Shown: positions 58,255 through 63,907 of the stretch, piece after piece
How positions within the stretch are numbered: the first letter of the stretch is position 1
How the letters are laid out: each line of letters starts with the position of its first letter
NCBI GenBank assembly: GCA_963823435.1
Contig: CAWGLN010000001.1
Coordinates: 468,872 to 532,871 of the forward strand
Length of the DNA stretch: 64,000 nucleotides
Direction: 5' to 3'
Source of the DNA: an uncultured Gammaproteobacteria bacterium
Lineage (GTDB): Bacteria; Pseudomonadota; Gammaproteobacteria; Steroidobacterales; BM003
Made by a program: the position numbers and the translations under genes
The notes under the pieces: generated by a model
Told to the model about the DNA's origin: nothing
The model's database searches: none
The model's input: the letters and a program-made list of their open reading frames with translations, nothing else

Positions 58255-58450
58255 TTCATTTCTCCGCAAGCCAATCCTCCAGAGCCCTTGCCCTTCCTCA
58301 CTTAAATAATGAGTCAGGGGTCTCCGTGACGCTGACCCTGACATAACGTAGTACAGAACCAAATATGCAAACCGCGAACCCCGTCACAGATAACCACCCC
58401 GCCTACAGGGTCTACTGCACCTGCGGAATACACCTACGGGAATTGCTTAC

Positions 58451-59669
58451 ATGGGAAATCAGCACACCGGACCAGGCACGGCACGCAAAGCGGGCCTTCC
58501 TCTGACAACAGTTATCGCGACAATCGCGCTGGCATCAGTATGGTCGTCAGCCTGCTTTGCGGATTCACGCGAACAGGCAAAGCGCATGCATGATCGTTTA
58601 GCCGGCACACCTCCGGGTGAGTTGGTACTTGCAGCCATGGCAGCGGATATCGACAACAATGATCCTCAGGCAGCGGCCATGCGCGCCATGAACGATCCTG
58701 CGTTCTATAACGTCACTCTGAAGAACTGGGCGACCCCGTGGACCAATCGTGATCGCACTGTGTTTGCGCCACTGAATGACTACAGCGCGACTGTTATCGG
58801 CATGGTTCGAGACGACGTTGGCTTTGATCAGCTGCTAAGCGCGAACCTGGTTTATCACGCCAATGGTGCGGTGGTTAACGGCGCCAGCCCGCCAAACTAC
58901 TCTCCCGCCAATAACGCTCACTATGAGTGGCTGGAAGATAACGGCGCCAATCTGCAAGCTGTCCTGGTGTCTGGCACGCAAACCCAGATTTCGGGTCTGG
59001 ATGCGAGCGCCACCGCCGGGGTAATGACGACCCGCGCCGCCGCAGCAGCTTTCTTCGTGGCTGGCACCAACCGGGCGATGTTCAGGTTCACGTTGCTCAA
59101 TCACATGTGTACGGATCTTGAGCAGGTAAAAGACCCCACCCGTTCACCGGATCGAATTCGGCAGGACGTGTCCCGCAGCCCCGGCGGCGACAGTCGACTA
59201 TTCCAGAACAATTGCGTTGGCTGTCATACCGGCATGGATCCGATGGCCCAGGCGTTCGCCTACTACAACTTCAATGAGGCCAGCGGCCGGCTTGAGTACA
59301 CAGCCAAGCATCGTGCAGCCAAAGTATTTTATCAACGGTGAGACCTTCAGCCCCGGTTATGTGACTCCCGATGACAGTTGGGACAACTACTGGCGTACCG
59401 GCCCGAACTCGCTGCTCGGCTGGAGCACGTCTCCATCATTGCCGGGCAGCGGCAATGGCGCCAAATCAATGGGCGAAGAACTGGCTGGCAGCCGGGCGTT
59501 TGCGAGCTGCCAGGTAAAGAAGGCGTTCAGGCTTGCCTGTCTGCGTGATCCGATCGACGGCGCGGATCGGCAGAAAGTCAGCGATATGACCGACATGTTC
59601 ACCACCAGTGGTGGCTATCTGATGAAACCGGTATTTGCAGAAGCCGCCGCTTACTGCATGGGCCAATAG
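58451..59669 (+). pseudogene. Secreted CxxCH-motif protein (~405 aa) with one frameshift near 59295-59305
   Basis: ORF 58451..59341 has a signal-like ALASVWSSACFA and ...FQNNCVGCHTGMDPMAQAFAYYNF. ORF 59217..59669 continues in another frame (...PSIVQPKYFINGETFSPGYVTPDDSWDNYW). The 1219-nt span equals 3n+1. Confidence 0.62.
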
Positions 59670-59678
59670 GAAACGGGA

Positions 59679-62215: not shown

Positions 62216-63853
62216 ATGTTTAAGCGACGCAAACCACTGCTTCCCCACGAACCCCTGCGACTTAATAATCACAGTCGGCCGATCACACGGCGCGAATTCA
62301 TCGCTCAGGGATTCATGACCGGCGCAGGCACGCTTATGGGTGGCAGCGTATTGGGCCTGTTTGCAAATCCACGCGCAGCCTATGCCGCTCTGTCCGGCGA
62401 TATCTCCACCTTGCGCGACAGTTGCGGAATCGCGACTGCCGGCGCGGGCAAGATTCCCTTCATCTGCTTCGATCTTGCAGGCGGCGCCAATATTTCCGGC
62501 TCCAACGTGCTGGTCGGCGGTCTCGGTGGGCAGGAAGATTTTCTGAGCACCGCCGGCTACAGCAAACTCGGACTGCCGGGTGATCGCATCCCCTCGATCA
62601 TGAATCCCGCTAACGGACTCAGCGATTTTGTGAATCGCGAACTCGGCCTGGCCTTTCATTCGGACAGCGCGATGCTTGCAGGCATACGGCAGAAAGTGAA
62701 TATGGCCAGTGGCATTATAAACGGTGCCGTAATACCGGCTCGCTCCGACAATGACACCGGCAACAACCCGCACAATCCCATGTACGGAATTAACCGCGCC
62801 GGTGCCGATGGCGAATTGCTGACACTCATCGGTTCGCAAAGCTCGATGTCCGGTGGCAATTCGATGCCGCCTGACGGCATGATCAACCCGGCCGTGCGAC
62901 CAACCAAGGTAGACCGCACCAGCGATGCCACCGGCCTGGTGGATACCGGCCAGCTGGTCGGCCTGCTCGATCAGTCTGATGCCGTTGCGGTAATGGAGGC
63001 GATACAGCGTATCTGCGACATGAAACTGGGACGGGTCAATACACTGATTACTGCAGATGATGTCGTCAAGGAACTGGTCAGTTGCGGCTACGTCAAGGCG
63101 GCTGATCTGGCAGATCGCTACGGCAATCCCGGCGATATCAATCCGGCGCTGGATTGCGACATCGTCGGCCCCGGTGGTGTATTCAGCCAGGCTGAATTCG
63201 ACGGCGACCGCGAATTCGAAAAAACAGCCGCGATCATGAAACTGGTGGTGAATGGATACGCCGGAGCCGGCACGGTTACGATGGGTGGCTACGACTACCA
63301 TACCGGCGACCGCGCGACCGGTGAATTACGCGACCTGCGTGCAGGCCGCTGCATCGGCGCCTGCCTCGAGTACGCTGCGAACGTGGGCGTGCCGCTTATG
63401 GTTTATGTCTTCAGCGATGGTTCCGTATTCAGTAACGGCATGATCGACAACTCGGCCGACGGCGGCGGCAAAGGCGTCTGGACCGGCGACAACTCCTCGA
63501 CGGCTGCATCCTTCATGCTGGTATACAACCCGGGCAGCGCCCCGACACTGTTCACCGGCGGCAGCGACGGCAAGACCGCTGAACAGCATCAGCAGATCGG
63601 CTGGATGCGGCCCGATGCTTCGGTGGAAACCAGCGGTACGCCTGCCGCCAACAACGTCAACCTGCTGGTGGAAACGGTCGTTCTTAACTACATGGCATTG
63701 CATGGTGAACAGAACCTGTTTGGTAACCAGGGATTTTTCCCAACTCACGGGTTGGGGAACGTCGCGCTGAGAGACAGCCTGATCGCGTTCAACCCGATTG
63801 CGCCGGGCGGTCAAATCGGCCCACCTCTGCCCAATCCTTGCACAGCAGGCTGA
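62216..63853 (+). CDS. Tat-exported protein, DUF1501-like (alkaline-phosphatase-superfamily-like), 545 aa
   Basis: The twin-arginine signal is ITRREFIAQGFMTGAGTLMGGSVLGL...AYA. IPFICFDLAGGANISGSNVL and MGGYDYHTGDR resemble the DUF1501 pattern, from memory. The antisense ORF 62054..63301 is rejected. Confidence 0.68.
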   Translation: MFKRRKPLLPHEPLRLNNHSRPITRREFIAQGFMTGAGTLMGGSVLGLFANPRAAYAALSGDISTLRDSCGIATAGAGKIPFICFDLAGGANISGSNVLVGGLGGQEDFLSTAGYSKLGLPGDRIPSIMNPANGLSDFVNRELGLAFHSDSAMLAGIRQKVNMASGIINGAVIPARSDNDTGNNPHNPMYGINRAGADGELLTLIGSQSSMSGGNSMPPDGMINPAVRPTKVDRTSDATGLVDTGQLVGLLDQSDAVAVMEAIQRICDMKLGRVNTLITADDVVKELVSCGYVKAADLADRYGNPGDINPALDCDIVGPGGVFSQAEFDGDREFEKTAAIMKLVVNGYAGAGTVTMGGYDYHTGDRATGELRDLRAGRCIGACLEYAANVGVPLMVYVFSDGSVFSNGMIDNSADGGGKGVWTGDNSSTAASFMLVYNPGSAPTLFTGGSDGKTAEQHQQIGWMRPDASVETSGTPAANNVNLLVETVVLNYMALHGEQNLFGNQGFFPTHGLGNVALRDSLIAFNPIAPGGQIGPPLPNPCTAG

Positions 63854-63876
63854 GCCTGGGATTTCAAGAATACAAA

Positions 63877-63907
63877 GGAGGCCCCGCGCTGCGGGGCCTC
63901 CTTTTTT
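63877..63907 (+). terminator. Rho-independent terminator
   Basis: GGAGGCCCCGC - GCT - GCGGGGCCTCC followed by TTTTTT, starting 24 nt after the stop at 63853. Confidence 0.82.

What the first reader, a model, noticed from the sequence alone, without database searches (positions are those of the whole stretch)
58363..63907. Divergent operon of CxxCH/HNCW-repeat, LamG and Tat-exported DUF1501-like proteins (planctomycete-style pairing in a proteobacterium)
- Three + strand genes start 88 bp from the minus-strand operon.
- Counting the 889-aa propeller protein as well, five CxxCH motifs lie in three adjacent secreted proteins: CNGCH, CTNCH, CVGCH, CGACH, CVGCH.
- The LamG lipoprotein has two copies of a C..CH-(about 40 aa)-NP.SSRL/AQSRL-(about 10 aa)-HNCW module. 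This resembles the Planctomycete cytochrome-C (PSCyt) domain.
- In Planctomycetes, PSCyt/DUF1549/DUF1553 proteins are typically paired with a Tat-exported DUF1501 protein of unknown function. Here too the last gene is Tat-exported and DUF1501-like.
- Two of the three genes are frameshifted: 1 break in the first and at least 4 in the second.
Basis: partly seen in the sequence, partly recalled or inferred. Interest (0 to 1): 0.55.

Follow-up and report, generated by a model that had tools for sequence, protein, structure and literature searches.

The report
Conserved cytochrome and phosphatase-like envelope operon
These three genes encode two haem-type secreted proteins and one exported phosphatase-like protein; the set recurs in hundreds of marine Gammaproteobacteria, distantly resembles an uncharacterised planctomycete gene pair, and here has two of its three genes broken by six single-base indels.

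Summary
Window 58451-63853 carries three co-oriented genes:
- g1: about 405 aa, one CxxCH.
- g2: about 835-aa lipoprotein, with two CxxCH...HNCW modules, a LamG domain and a C-terminal domain.
- g3: 545 aa, Tat signal.

All five CxxCH motifs, both HNCW motifs and the lipobox cysteines are invariant in 68-71 orthologs.

g1 has one frameshift and g2 has five. A 97.5%-identical relative and about 70 other genomes have both genes intact.

- The g2 haem modules resemble PSCyt1 in profile-profile comparison (probability 93% and 65%).
- g1 is a compact PSCyt2-N/PSCyt3/PSD2-like protein.
- g3 is not a DUF1501 member: no Pfam hit in 65 diverse relatives. It has an alkaline-phosphatase-superfamily fold and only a remote, colinear DUF1501 similarity (E about 3e-4).

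The operon is one arm of a strictly syntenic cluster. The other arm encodes a hydrazine-synthase-alpha-like dihaem propeller, two outer-membrane barrels, a thioredoxin, DUF4266, flavinylated DUF3570 and ApbE. In at least 33 genomes a TolQ/TolR/GltG-like plus TPR module is also linked.

Function is unknown; a periplasmic thiol-flavin-haem redox machine is the best inference. I rate it a new variant of a known, uncharacterised kind.

The parts
58255..58450 (.). 196-bp divergent intergenic region between the propeller-protein operon (-) and g1-g2-g3 (+)
   Evidence: Ortholog-supported start codons at 58254 (-) and 58451 (+). No consensus sigma-70 site and no Fur, Pho or other box was found.
58451..59669 (+). 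g1: Sec-exported protein of about 405 aa with one CxxCH. It has a PSCyt2-N-like N-terminus, a PSCyt3-like haem motif and a PSD2-like C-terminus. It is broken by one extra base near 59308.
   Evidence: frameshift. (Pfam). (C255xxCH259 is 70/70; C220, C353, C363 and C402 are invariant).
59213..59227 (+). g1 CVGCH haem-binding motif, followed by GMDP
   Evidence: It aligns to PSCyt3 profile positions 67-89.
59678..62185 (+). g2: lipoprotein of about 835 aa. Order: signal peptide, lipobox Cys, two PSCyt1-like haem modules, LamG_3, and a C-terminal domain of about 320 aa. It is broken by five single-base indels.
   Evidence: Orthologs are 811-882 aa and intact.
59741..59741 (+). Extra base that separates the g2 signal peptide (frame of 59678) from the mature protein (frame of 59742)
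   Evidence: Alignment to L084 and three-frame translation.
59838..60125 (+). g2 haem module 1: CGACH 59892-59906, ENPTSSRL, HNCW 60036-60047
   Evidence: hhalign to PSCyt1 gives probability 65%, E 6e-5.
60195..60467 (+). g2 haem module 2: CVGCH 60249-60263, DEPAQSRL, HNCW 60402-60413
   Evidence: hhalign to PSCyt1 gives probability 93%, E 3.4e-7.
60750..61202 (+). g2 LamG (Laminin_G_3) domain
   Evidence: Pfam E 8e-19. Found in 54 of 54 orthologs.
61423..61663 (+). Cluster of four single-base deletions in g2, near 61423, 61477, 61528 and 61663
   Evidence: Alignments to L002 and L084.
62216..63853 (+). g3: intact 545-aa Tat-exported protein of a family with no Pfam match, with a predicted alkaline-phosphatase-superfamily fold. 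Motifs: RREF 62288-62299, DLAGGAN 62471-62491, NNPHNP 62762-62779, GGYDYH 63284-63301, FSDGS 63410-63424, TGDNS 63482-63496.
63874..63904 (+). Intrinsic terminator (14-bp stem followed by a T-run) that ends the operon
55588..58254 (-). 888-aa lipoprotein. It has a PD40 beta-propeller, the hydrazine-synthase-alpha middle domain and two CxxCH motifs. It is the first gene of the divergent operon.
   Evidence: Pfam HZS_alpha E 5e-16. PDB 5c2v_A E 5e-8. Motifs are invariant.
51283..55588 (-). Rest of the divergent operon: SH3+OMP barrel, OMP barrel, TlpA-like thioredoxin, DUF4266 (ends in CGC), DUF3570 and ApbE
   Evidence: Synteny holds in every locus with enough upstream flank. DUF3570 flavinylation was shown in PMC8238504.
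41508..50923 (-). Linked module: a second thioredoxin, a 181-aa protein, three TPR proteins, one TolQ/ExbB-like protein, two TolR/ExbD-like proteins and a GltG/AgmX-type TonB-like protein
   Evidence: The same genes lie directly downstream of g3 in about 33 other genomes.

Best explanation
**What it is.** g1-g2-g3 is one arm of a conserved gammaproteobacterial cell-envelope gene cluster. It is a remote, rearranged relative of the planctomycete modules that pair PSCyt/PSD cytochromes with a Tat-exported DUF1501 or DUF1552 protein.

**Shown here.**
- g1 is a Sec-exported protein with one CxxCH, built from PSCyt2-N-, PSCyt3- and PSD2-like segments.
- g2 is a lipoprotein with two PSCyt1-like modules, a LamG domain and an unclassified C-terminal domain. 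In each module a CxxCH is followed about 44 residues later by an invariant His-Asn-Cys-Trp.
- g3 is a Tat-signal protein with a predicted alkaline-phosphatase-superfamily core and invariant Asp/His positions: D180, D360-Y-H362, D401 and D425.
- The three genes are always adjacent. They always lie divergent to an operon for a hydrazine-synthase-alpha-like dihaem propeller, two outer-membrane barrels, a TlpA-like thioredoxin, DUF4266 (CXC), DUF3570 and, in the window and many loci, ApbE.

**Inferred mechanism.** The proteins form a periplasmic or outer-membrane redox assembly.
- Reducing equivalents enter by thiol-disulfide exchange through the thioredoxins and the DUF4266 CXC motif.
- They pass to FMN on DUF3570, and then to the five c-type haems of g1, g2 and the propeller protein.
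- I infer that the haems in g2 are bis-His, with the HNCW histidine as distal ligand.
- The g2 LamG and C-terminal domains would bind an unknown envelope or extracellular substrate.
- g3 would act on that substrate as a metal-dependent hydrolase or transferase.

**State in this window.** Six single-base indels interrupt g1 and g2, so the arm is either recently inactivated or mis-sequenced. I lean slightly towards sequence or assembly error. The sequence alone cannot decide.
For: **Synteny.** All nine genes are present, in the same order and orientation, in every one of about 70 genome loci with enough flank, across several orders.

**Motif invariance.**

**Domain evidence.**
- g1.
- g2.
- g3: AF2 model with pLDDT 85. 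All 50 top Foldseek PDB hits are alkaline phosphatases, sulfatases or iPGM.
- g3 versus DUF1501: hhalign aligns GGYDYH with GGWDTH, SDG with SEFGRT, and GDN with GTDHG. E is 2.5e-4 against controls of 0.08-0.8.

**Export signals.** The RR motif and the lipobox Cys26 (g2) and Cys30 (propeller) are invariant.

**Redox partners.** ApbE, DUF3570, DUF4266 and the thioredoxin are identified by Pfam. DUF3570 flavinylation by ApbE was shown experimentally (PMC8238504).

**Operon structure.** Gaps are 9 bp and 30 bp, with a terminator after g3.

**Purifying selection up to the present.** Against L084, dN/dS is 0.12 for g1, 0.18 for g2 and 0.10 for g3. The first 433 codons of g2 have 14 synonymous and 0 nonsynonymous changes.
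Against: - No experiment exists on any of the three families, and no haem, metal or Tat export has been shown.
- The similarities of g3 to solved structures and to DUF1501 fall below conventional significance: Foldseek best E 2e-3 with TM about 0.2, and hhalign probability 28-43%.
- The PSCyt1 comparison rests on only five PSCyt1 sequences.
- The electron path is inferred from gene content only.
- No regulatory motif hinting at a substrate was found.
- In this window two of the three genes cannot be translated as they stand.
Confidence: 0.55

Rival explanations
1. The six indels are real. g1 and g2 are pseudogenes, and this arm of the cluster is decaying in this organism while g3 survives.
For: - There are six independent single-base indels in 2.4 kb. 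None occurs in the 6 kb upstream or in g3, when compared with a 97.5% identical relative.
- Only one of the six lies in a homopolymer.
- No protein identical to either gene fragment is in the protein collection, although g3 is. This is consistent with a pseudogene call in the source record.
- tssC in the same window is also split.
- dN/dS rises to 0.27-0.39 in the 3' part of g2.
Against: - dN/dS stays low. The first 433 codons of g2 have 0 nonsynonymous changes among 14 substitutions. That is hard to reconcile with enough neutral time to collect six indels.
- All of about 70 other genomes keep both genes intact.
- Four deletions within 240 bp, in a locally divergent stretch (92-95% identity), is what a mixed-strain long-read consensus error would look like.
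Confidence: 0.45
2. The indels are sequencing or assembly artefacts. The organism has intact g1 and g2, like all of its relatives.
For: - The signatures of purifying selection persist.
- Both genes are intact in every other genome examined.
- The deletions cluster tightly.
- Another essential-looking gene, tssC, is also split in the same 64 kb. This suggests a general indel error rate.
Against: - There are no indels in about 8 kb of flanking genes against the same comparator.
- g3 lies in the most divergent stretch and has none.
- The indel contexts are mostly not homopolymers.
Confidence: 0.55
3. The operon is a true member of the planctomycete PSCyt1/PSCyt2/PSD1 plus DUF1501 system, acquired by horizontal transfer.
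For: - The gene order and the LamG insertion match architectures described for PVC bacteria (PMC3542564).
- There are weak PSCyt2 hits on g1.
Against: - No DUF1501 model hit in 65 g3 relatives.
- PSD1 is absent.
- PSCyt1 is found by Pfam in only 1 of 54 g2 relatives.
- g1 is closer to the PSCyt3/PSD2 line.
- The family is broadly and syntenically distributed within Gammaproteobacteria, with g3 about 70% identical across orders. This argues for long residence, not recent transfer.
Confidence: 0.07
4. The CxxCH motifs are not haem attachment sites. They are structural disulfide or metal sites, and the proteins are not redox-active.
For: - Cytochrome Pfam hits are weak and confined to the motif.
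- Extra invariant cysteines (HNCW plus a downstream Cys) suggest disulfides.
Against: - The CxxCH motif is strictly invariant, including the His, in all five sites.
- The modules are homologous to PSCyt1 cytochrome-type domains.
- The neighbouring propeller protein matches the haem-binding middle domain of hydrazine synthase alpha exactly at its CxxCH.
- All the proteins are exported.
Confidence: 0.1
5. g3 is the type II secretion protein GspF, as some database records name it.
For: The name 'general secretion pathway protein GspF' is attached to several orthologs.
Against: - No T2SSF or any other Pfam or NCBIfam hit.
- It has a Tat signal.
- The model is a soluble alpha/beta fold without membrane helices beyond the signal.
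- Foldseek hits are all alkaline-phosphatase superfamily.
Confidence: 0.01

Closest known systems
Planctomycete/PVC module: PSCyt1-PSCyt2-PSD1 (often with Laminin_G_3) protein next to a Tat-exported DUF1501 protein (Studholme 2004; Kamneva 2012, PMC3542564)
   Same: - CxxCH modules of PSCyt1 type.
- A LamG_3 domain in the cytochrome protein.
- A Tat-signal partner with an alkaline-phosphatase-like core encoded immediately downstream.
- Function unknown in both.
   Different: - The cytochrome part is split over two proteins.
- PSD1 is absent and PSCyt2 is only a partial, sub-threshold resemblance.
- The distal ligand region is HNCW instead of the PSCyt1 ending. The usual PSCyt1 ending (Met-Pro-Pro) is from my memory and was not checked here.
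- The partner is not a DUF1501 member by any model.
- The host is Gammaproteobacteria, and the operon is embedded in a flavin/thiol/haem cluster.
PSD3-PSD5-PSD4-PSCyt3-PSD2 (DUF1587/1595/1592/1588/1585) protein next to DUF1552 (HXXSHH)
   Same: g1 carries the PSCyt3-type 'C..CH..DP' motif and a PSD2-like C-terminus. A real example of this pairing was recovered in L119.
   Different: - g1 is 405 aa and lacks PSD3, PSD4 and PSD5.
- g3 shows no similarity to DUF1552 (hhalign probability 0.15%).
DUF1800 plus DUF1501 gene pairs of Proteobacteria and Bacteroidota
   Same: A two-gene unit in which the second gene is a Tat-exported alkaline-phosphatase-like protein. It gave the best hhalign match to g3 (probability 43%).
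   Different: - g1 is not detectably related to DUF1800 (E 0.04).
- DUF1501 keeps the SEFGRT and GTDHG motifs, which g3 has replaced.
ApbE-DUF3570-DUF4266-thioredoxin flavinylation clusters (Meheust et al. 2021, PMC8238504)
   Same: The divergent operon contains exactly this set. DUF4266 ends in CXC, and DUF3570 carries a flavinylation-like DSISSAS motif.
   Different: The passages of that paper read here do not mention the cytochrome proteins, the propeller protein or g3 in these clusters. Here those genes are invariably attached.
Hydrazine synthase alpha subunit (PDB 5c2v) and 'HZS_alpha domain' homologs outside anammox bacteria (PMC12758564)
   Same: The neighbouring 888-aa protein shares the propeller, the middle domain and the two-haem layout.
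   Different: - No beta or gamma subunit gene was seen among the called genes of the cluster.
- The position that aligns with a Tyr in the HZS-alpha sequence (Tyr591 by my recollection of the structure paper) is an invariant His here.
- It is not expected to make hydrazine.
Agl-Glt 'core complex' of unknown function in Gammaproteobacteria (Luciano et al. 2011, PMC3169522)
   Same: The linked module has one TolQ-like protein, two TolR-like proteins, a GltG/AgmX-type TonB-like protein, three TPR proteins and one extra gene.
   Different: Orthology to the Myxococcus genes was not tested phylogenetically. The link to a redox cluster is not mentioned in the passages of that paper read here.

Membership tests
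PSCyt1 (PF07635, planctomycete cytochrome C) | Match to the Pfam model at or above the gathering score | tested here: not met
   Only 1 of 54 g2 orthologs has any hit (E 0.058). The window copy has none.
PSCyt1 (PF07635, planctomycete cytochrome C) | CxxCH followed by the conserved 'P..S.L' helix, seen in profile-profile alignment to confirmed PSCyt1 domains | tested here: met
   hhalign gives module 2 probability 93%, E 3.4e-7 and module 1 probability 65%, E 6e-5. Reversed controls give E 0.03-0.11. Caveat: only five PSCyt1 sequences were used.
PSCyt2/PSD1 (DUF1549/DUF1553) proteins | Full PSCyt2 domain | tested here: inconclusive
   g1 residues 33-133 match the first half of the model at 17-27 bits against a cut-off of 29.8. 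Hits occur in 8 of 70 orthologs. hhalign gives probability 17%, E 1.5e-3.
PSCyt2/PSD1 (DUF1549/DUF1553) proteins | PSD1 domain | tested here: not met
   No Pfam hit. hhalign of g1, g2 and the g2 C-terminus against PSD1 gives E 0.3-0.5.
PSCyt3/PSD2 (DUF1588/DUF1585) proteins | PSD2 and PSCyt3 model matches | tested here: inconclusive
   PSD2 hits 64 of 70 orthologs at E<=0.1. Three orthologs score 25.9-28.9 bits against a cut-off of 25.8. PSCyt3 hits 37 of 70, always below the cut-off. The window's own C-terminal fragment gives no hit.
PSCyt3/PSD2 (DUF1588/DUF1585) proteins | Accompanying PSD3, PSD5 and PSD4 domains, and a DUF1552 partner gene | tested here: not met
   g1 is too short and has no such hits. 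g3 against DUF1552 gives probability 0.15%.
DUF1501 (PF07394) | Match to the Pfam model | tested here: not met
   0 of 65 diverse g3 relatives hit it at E<=1. Genuine DUF1501 proteins score E 1e-114 to 1e-154 with the same tool.
DUF1501 (PF07394) | Twin-arginine signal | tested here: met
   R25 and R26 are invariant in 65 relatives.
DUF1501 (PF07394) | Core motifs GGWDTH, SEFGRT and GTDHG in order | tested here: inconclusive
   hhalign aligns GGYDYH, FSDGSV and TGDNS to them colinearly. Probability is 28-43% with E 2.5e-4 to 6e-4, against controls of 0.08-0.8. Only the first motif is conserved in sequence.
Alkaline-phosphatase superfamily | Alpha/beta core fold similar to solved members | tested here: inconclusive
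Type II secretion GspF | T2SSF domains in a polytopic inner-membrane protein | tested here: not met
   No Pfam or NCBIfam hit. The model is a soluble fold.
ApbE/DUF3570/DUF4266/thioredoxin flavinylation cluster | All four Pfam families adjacent, a CXC at the DUF4266 C-terminus, and a flavinylation motif in DUF3570 | tested here: met
   The definition is taken from PMC8238504. Flavinylation itself is not testable here.
Hydrazine synthase alpha | HZS_alpha middle domain with a CxxCH | tested here: met
   Pfam E 5e-16. 5c2v_A E 5e-8.
Hydrazine synthase alpha | Equivalog-level match and beta/gamma partner subunits | tested here: not met
   The NCBIfam hydrazine_alpha score is 52.6 bits against a cut-off of 800. 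No partner genes appear among the called genes of the cluster.
Agl-Glt core complex (Luciano 2011) | One TolQ-like protein, two TolR-like proteins, a GltG-type TonB-like protein and TPR proteins in one cluster | tested here: met
   (NF033768 scores 69 bits against a cut-off of 40; GltG E 3e-9). The gene set is conserved in at least 20 loci.
Agl-Glt core complex (Luciano 2011) | Phylogenetic grouping with the Myxococcus agl and glt genes | not tested

The most novel reading that the evidence does not exclude
The g1-g3 arm, the DUF3570/HZS-alpha-like arm and the TolQ/TolR/GltG-like plus TPR module could together form one envelope-spanning machine of about 19 genes. In it, a proton-motive-force-driven Agl-Glt-type 'core complex', whose function in Gammaproteobacteria has been open since 2011, would be coupled to an extracytoplasmic thiol-flavin-haem chain and to a new family of alkaline-phosphatase-fold enzymes. 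g3 would be the founding member of a widespread, unmodelled sister family of DUF1501 and DUF1552. This would make the planctomycete PSCyt/DUF1501 question testable in tractable Gammaproteobacteria.
Probability: 0.3. Interest if true: 0.75.

Novelty: new variant of a known kind. Interest (0 to 1): 0.5.

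Why it matters
- PSCyt/PSD cytochrome-like proteins and their Tat-exported DUF1501 or DUF1552 partners are among the most expanded gene families of Planctomycetes and Verrucomicrobia. In the papers I could search, no function is assigned to them (PMC3542564, PMC5615132).
- A single-copy, strictly syntenic, distantly related version exists in cultivable Gammaproteobacteria such as Alteromonas, Pseudoalteromonas, Microbulbifer and Paraglaciecola. 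It offers a genetically tractable route to that function.
- It also ties three orphan systems to one locus: the DUF3570 flavinylation cluster, HZS-alpha-like proteins outside anammox bacteria, and the gammaproteobacterial Agl-Glt core complex. Knock-outs and co-fitness data could therefore address all three at once.
- g3 itself is abundant. More than 8000 clusters at 90% identity were found, and about 588 of the GTDB species-representative genome stretches scanned matched. It is about 70% identical across orders, has no Pfam or NCBIfam model, and is sometimes misnamed GspF.
- For this particular genome, the practical point is that two of the three genes are unreadable as deposited.

Tried and rejected
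- **First AlphaFold run of g3.** A shallow alignment (21 sequences at 69% identity or more) gave pLDDT 45 and was discarded. A 65-sequence alignment of distant relatives then gave pLDDT 85.
- **PDB sequence searches.** Profiles of g1, g2 and g3 found nothing useful.
- **Regulatory clues in the divergent intergenic regions of 70 loci.** There were no Fur, PhoB, OxyR, Zur, NsrR or IscR boxes. Enriched k-mers only reflected clade relatedness.
- **Other comparisons.** g1 against DUF1800 gave E 0.04. The g2 C-terminal domain against PSD1, PSCyt2 and g1 gave E about 0.35.
- **Same-strain comparator for the indels.** The exact g3 protein is not on record as a gene. Contigs L085, L086 and L215 are only 93.6-95.2% identical to the window, less than L084, so they are not the same strain.
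- **DUF1501 genes in the 83 gammaproteobacterial loci.** A motif search found only a chance SEFGR inside one g3 ortholog.
- **GC3-based screen for further frameshifts in the window.** It was too noisy to use.

Full report
**What is in the sequence**

Between 58255 and 63904 the + strand carries three tightly packed genes.
- g1 starts at the ATG at 58451 and stops at 59669.
- g2 starts 9 bp later at 59678 (MMKLLKPF...) and stops at 62185.
- g3 runs from 62216 to 63853.
- A 14-bp-stem intrinsic terminator follows at 63874-63904.

The minus-strand neighbour is an 888-aa protein (55588-58254). Orthologs begin at the ATG at 58254, so the divergent intergenic region is 196 bp, as in the close relative L002.

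**Frameshifts**

I compared the window with three sets of intact orthologs.
- Aliiglaciecola L001 has genes of 417, 822 and 532 aa.
- The metagenomic relative L002 is 85% identical in DNA.
- L084 is 97.5% identical over 11.8 kb and has genes of 405 aa (called as 360), 835 aa and 545 aa.

Against L084 the window shows six single-base indels.
- One extra base near 59308 in g1.
- One extra base near 59741 in g2. It cuts the lipoprotein signal peptide from the mature protein.
- Four single-base deletions near 61423, 61477, 61528 and 61663 in g2.

There are no indels in the 6.1 kb upstream operon or in g3. g1 and g2 are intact in every locus where the whole gene is on the contig: 70 g1 copies of 391-432 aa and 71 g2 copies of 811-882 aa.

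Substitution patterns against L084 still show purifying selection.

| Gene or segment | dN/dS or counts |
|---|---|
| g1 | 0.12 |
| g2 | 0.18 |
| g3 | 0.10 |
| g2, first 433 codons | 14 synonymous, 0 nonsynonymous |
| g2, around and after the deletion cluster | 0.27-0.39 |

Only one of the six indels lies in a homopolymer. Another gene in the window, the T6SS sheath gene tssC, is also split between two frames: the VipB domain in 16414-17577 and the VipB_2 domain in 16041-16457.

No protein identical to the g1 or g2 fragments exists in the protein collection, although g3 does. That fits a pseudogene call in the source record.

I cannot decide between recent inactivation and assembly error. I put it at roughly 45:55. 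No same-strain contig could be found.

**Conservation and context**

g3 has more than 8000 relatives at the 90% cluster level. It is about 70% identical across Alteromonadales, Cellvibrionales, Steroidobacteraceae, Thiodiazotropha, Sedimenticola and others.

In all 83 loci analysed the gene upstream of g3 is g2. In every locus with enough flank the full order is the same:
- Minus strand: DUF3570, DUF4266, thioredoxin, OMP barrel, SH3+OMP barrel, HZS-alpha-like protein.
- Plus strand: g1, g2, g3.

ApbE lies either beyond DUF3570, as in the window (51283-52260), or just downstream of g3.

The following residues are invariant.
- g1: C255xxCH259 in 70 of 70.
- g2: C73xxCH77, H121-N-C123-W and C135; C193xxCH197, H244-N-C246-W and C250; and lipobox C26. 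All are 71 of 71.
- Propeller protein: C606xxCH610, H618, C752xxCH756 and lipobox C30 in 68 of 68.

**What the proteins are**

*g1.* Single sequences give only sub-threshold PSCyt2/DUF1549 hits (residues 33-133) and PSCyt3/DUF1588 hits (residues 251-273, around the haem motif). Across 70 orthologs the hits are PSD2/DUF1585 in 64, PSCyt3 in 37 and PSCyt2 in 8. Three orthologs pass the PSD2 gathering score, with the match at residues of about 322-394. g1 is therefore a compact relative of the planctomycete PSCyt3/PSD2 line with a PSCyt2-like N-terminus.

*g2.* LamG_3 is clear (E 1e-18, found in 54 of 54). Pfam PSCyt1 hits only 1 of 54.

To test PSCyt1 properly I recovered genuine planctomycete-type genes from metagenome contigs, using a DNA pattern for the DUF1501 motif GEFGRTP. 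I confirmed them with Pfam: PSCyt1-PSCyt2-PSD1 proteins each followed by DUF1501, with E values down to 1e-154.
- hhalign of g2 module 2 against five PSCyt1 domains gives probability 93%, E 3.4e-7.
- Module 1 gives probability 65%, E 6e-5.
- Reversed controls give E 0.03-0.11.
- The two g2 modules match each other at 99%.

The g2 C-terminal domain of about 320 aa matches nothing that I tested.

*g3.* It has no Pfam or NCBIfam hit, even at E=1. An exhaustive profile search of 1.8 billion cluster representatives found 1505 relatives. Sixty-five full-length relatives, down to 28% identity, again hit no Pfam family.

With that alignment AlphaFold2 gave a confident model (pLDDT 85.3, pTM 0.85). Foldseek against the PDB returned only weak matches (best E 2e-3, TM about 0.2). 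However, all 50 best matches are alkaline phosphatases, sulfatases or cofactor-independent phosphoglycerate mutases.

hhalign results for g3 and controls were as follows.

| Comparison | Probability | E-value |
|---|---|---|
| g3 vs 8 proteobacterial DUF1501 proteins (each next to DUF1800) | 43% | 2.5e-4 |
| g3 vs 71 DUF1501 proteins (colinear over 402 columns, from the RR motif onwards) | 28% | 6e-4 |
| g3 vs unrelated or reversed alignments | 0.1-0.7% | 0.08-0.8 |
| DUF1501 vs a confirmed DUF1552 | 95.7% | 9e-9 |
| g3 vs DUF1552 | 0.15% | 0.39 |

In the first comparison GGYDYH aligns with GGWDTH, FSDGSV with SEFGRT, and TGDNS with GTDHG.

g3 is best described as a separate, unmodelled family of the alkaline-phosphatase superfamily. 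It is more distant from DUF1501 than DUF1552 is. The database name 'GspF' is wrong.

**The neighbours**

The 888-aa protein combines PD40 propeller repeats with the hydrazine-synthase-alpha middle domain (Pfam E 5e-16). It matches PDB 5c2v chain A at the haem motif (E 5e-8). It scores far below the NCBIfam equivalog cut-off (52.6 bits against 800). The position that aligns with a Tyr of HZS-alpha is an invariant His here. Identifying that Tyr as haem ligand Tyr591 rests on my memory of the structure paper. A 2025 survey concluded that such homologs lack the catalytic residues for hydrazine synthesis (PMC12758564).

The set ApbE, DUF3570, DUF4266 and thioredoxin is the flavinylation-associated cluster of Meheust et al. 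They showed that ApbE flavinylates DUF3570, and they noted the C-terminal CXC of DUF4266. The function remains unknown (PMC8238504). The window's DUF4266 ends in GGGCGCN, and its DUF3570 carries DSISSAS.

**A further link, outside the given coordinates**

Downstream of ApbE on the minus strand (41508-50923) lie:
- a second thioredoxin;
- a 181-aa protein;
- three TPR proteins;
- one TolQ/ExbB-like protein;
- two TolR/ExbD-like proteins;
- a 308-aa protein with the AgmX/PglI C-terminal domain (NF033768, 69 bits against a cut-off of 40) plus GltG, GltJ and TonB C-terminal hits.

The same genes, in the same order, lie directly downstream of g3 on the same strand in about 33 of 73 loci with enough flank. 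The two modules are therefore joined in two different arrangements, which argues for a functional link.

The composition equals the 'core complex' of AglRQS, GltG and the TPR proteins GltC/D/E. Luciano et al. found this complex conserved, with unknown function, in Gammaproteobacteria (PMC3169522). I did not test orthology to the Myxococcus genes.

**How it most likely works**

*Shown.* Export signals, haem-type motifs, domain relationships, strict synteny and purifying selection.

*Inferred.*
- This is a periplasmic or outer-membrane assembly.
- Thiol-disulfide proteins and FMN on DUF3570 exchange electrons with the c-type haems of g1, g2 and the propeller protein.
- The g2 LamG and C-terminal domains bind the substrate.
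- g3 is a metal-dependent hydrolase or transferase that acts on it.

The substrate is unknown. No regulatory box pointed to iron, phosphate or oxidative stress.

**Comparison with the known, and novelty**

The locus works like the planctomycete modules that pair a PSCyt/PSD cytochrome with a Tat-exported partner (PMC3542564; PMC5615132). It fails the membership tests for DUF1501, DUF1552, PSD1 and, by Pfam, PSCyt1.

It is a new variant of a known but uncharacterised kind. Three things distinguish it:
- the cytochrome part is split over two proteins;
- the alkaline-phosphatase-fold partner family has no model in Pfam or NCBIfam;
- it is fixed in association with the DUF3570 flavinylation cluster, an HZS-alpha-like protein and an Agl-Glt-like motor module.

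Its value lies mainly in tractability, because single-copy versions occur in cultivable Gammaproteobacteria. In this genome the copy may be defective.

Noticed in passing
window 41508-50923 (minus strand): This stretch carries a second thioredoxin, a 181-aa protein, three TPR proteins, one TolQ/ExbB-like protein, two TolR/ExbD-like proteins and a 308-aa GltG/AgmX-type TonB-like protein. The same gene set sits directly downstream of g3 in about 33 other genomes. Its composition matches the Agl-Glt 'core complex' of unknown function described for Gammaproteobacteria.
   Followed up: partly
window 16041-17577 (minus strand): The type VI secretion sheath gene tssC is split. The VipB N-terminal domain lies in ORF 16414-17577 and the VipB_2 C-terminal domain in ORF 16041-16457, in a different frame. 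This is another frameshift in the same window.
   Followed up: partly
L084 16803-17318: The 97.5%-identical relative carries a second, partial copy of g1 about 5 kb downstream of g3 (blastn at 95-97% identity to window 58945-59287 and 59444-59627). It is called there as two short genes of 174 and 171 aa.
   Followed up: no
window 61000-63500: DNA identity to L084 drops from 97-100% to 92-95% across the 3' part of g2 and most of g3 (g3 dS is 0.23, against 0.02-0.07 upstream). This suggests recombination or strain mixing at this end of the cluster.
   Followed up: partly
window 53477-53704 and 52323-53474 (minus strand): DUF4266 ends in GGGCGCN, the C-terminal CXC motif noted by Meheust et al. 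DUF3570 has only one clear flavinylation-like motif (DSISSAS at aa 74), whereas the published family logo has two.
   Followed up: partly
window 55588-58254 (minus strand): In the HZS-alpha-like protein, the position that aligns with a Tyr of Kuenenia hydrazine synthase alpha (haem ligand Tyr591, by my recollection) is an invariant His (H618) in 68 orthologs.
   Followed up: partly
L119 177-4086 and loci L095-L214: DUF1501 and DUF1552, the two planctomycete 'partner' families, are clearly homologous to each other (hhalign probability 95.7%, E 9e-9). On contig L119 the DUF1501 gene is followed by the PSD3-PSD5-PSD4-PSCyt3-PSD2 gene and then the DUF1552 gene.
   Followed up: partly
window 40511-41056 (+) and 3577-5825: A DsrE/DsrF-like sulfur-relay protein lies just beyond the TolQR module. 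Region 3.6-5.8 kb shows only short overlapping ORFs, including a 158-aa methyltransferase fragment, and may hold further broken genes.
   Followed up: no
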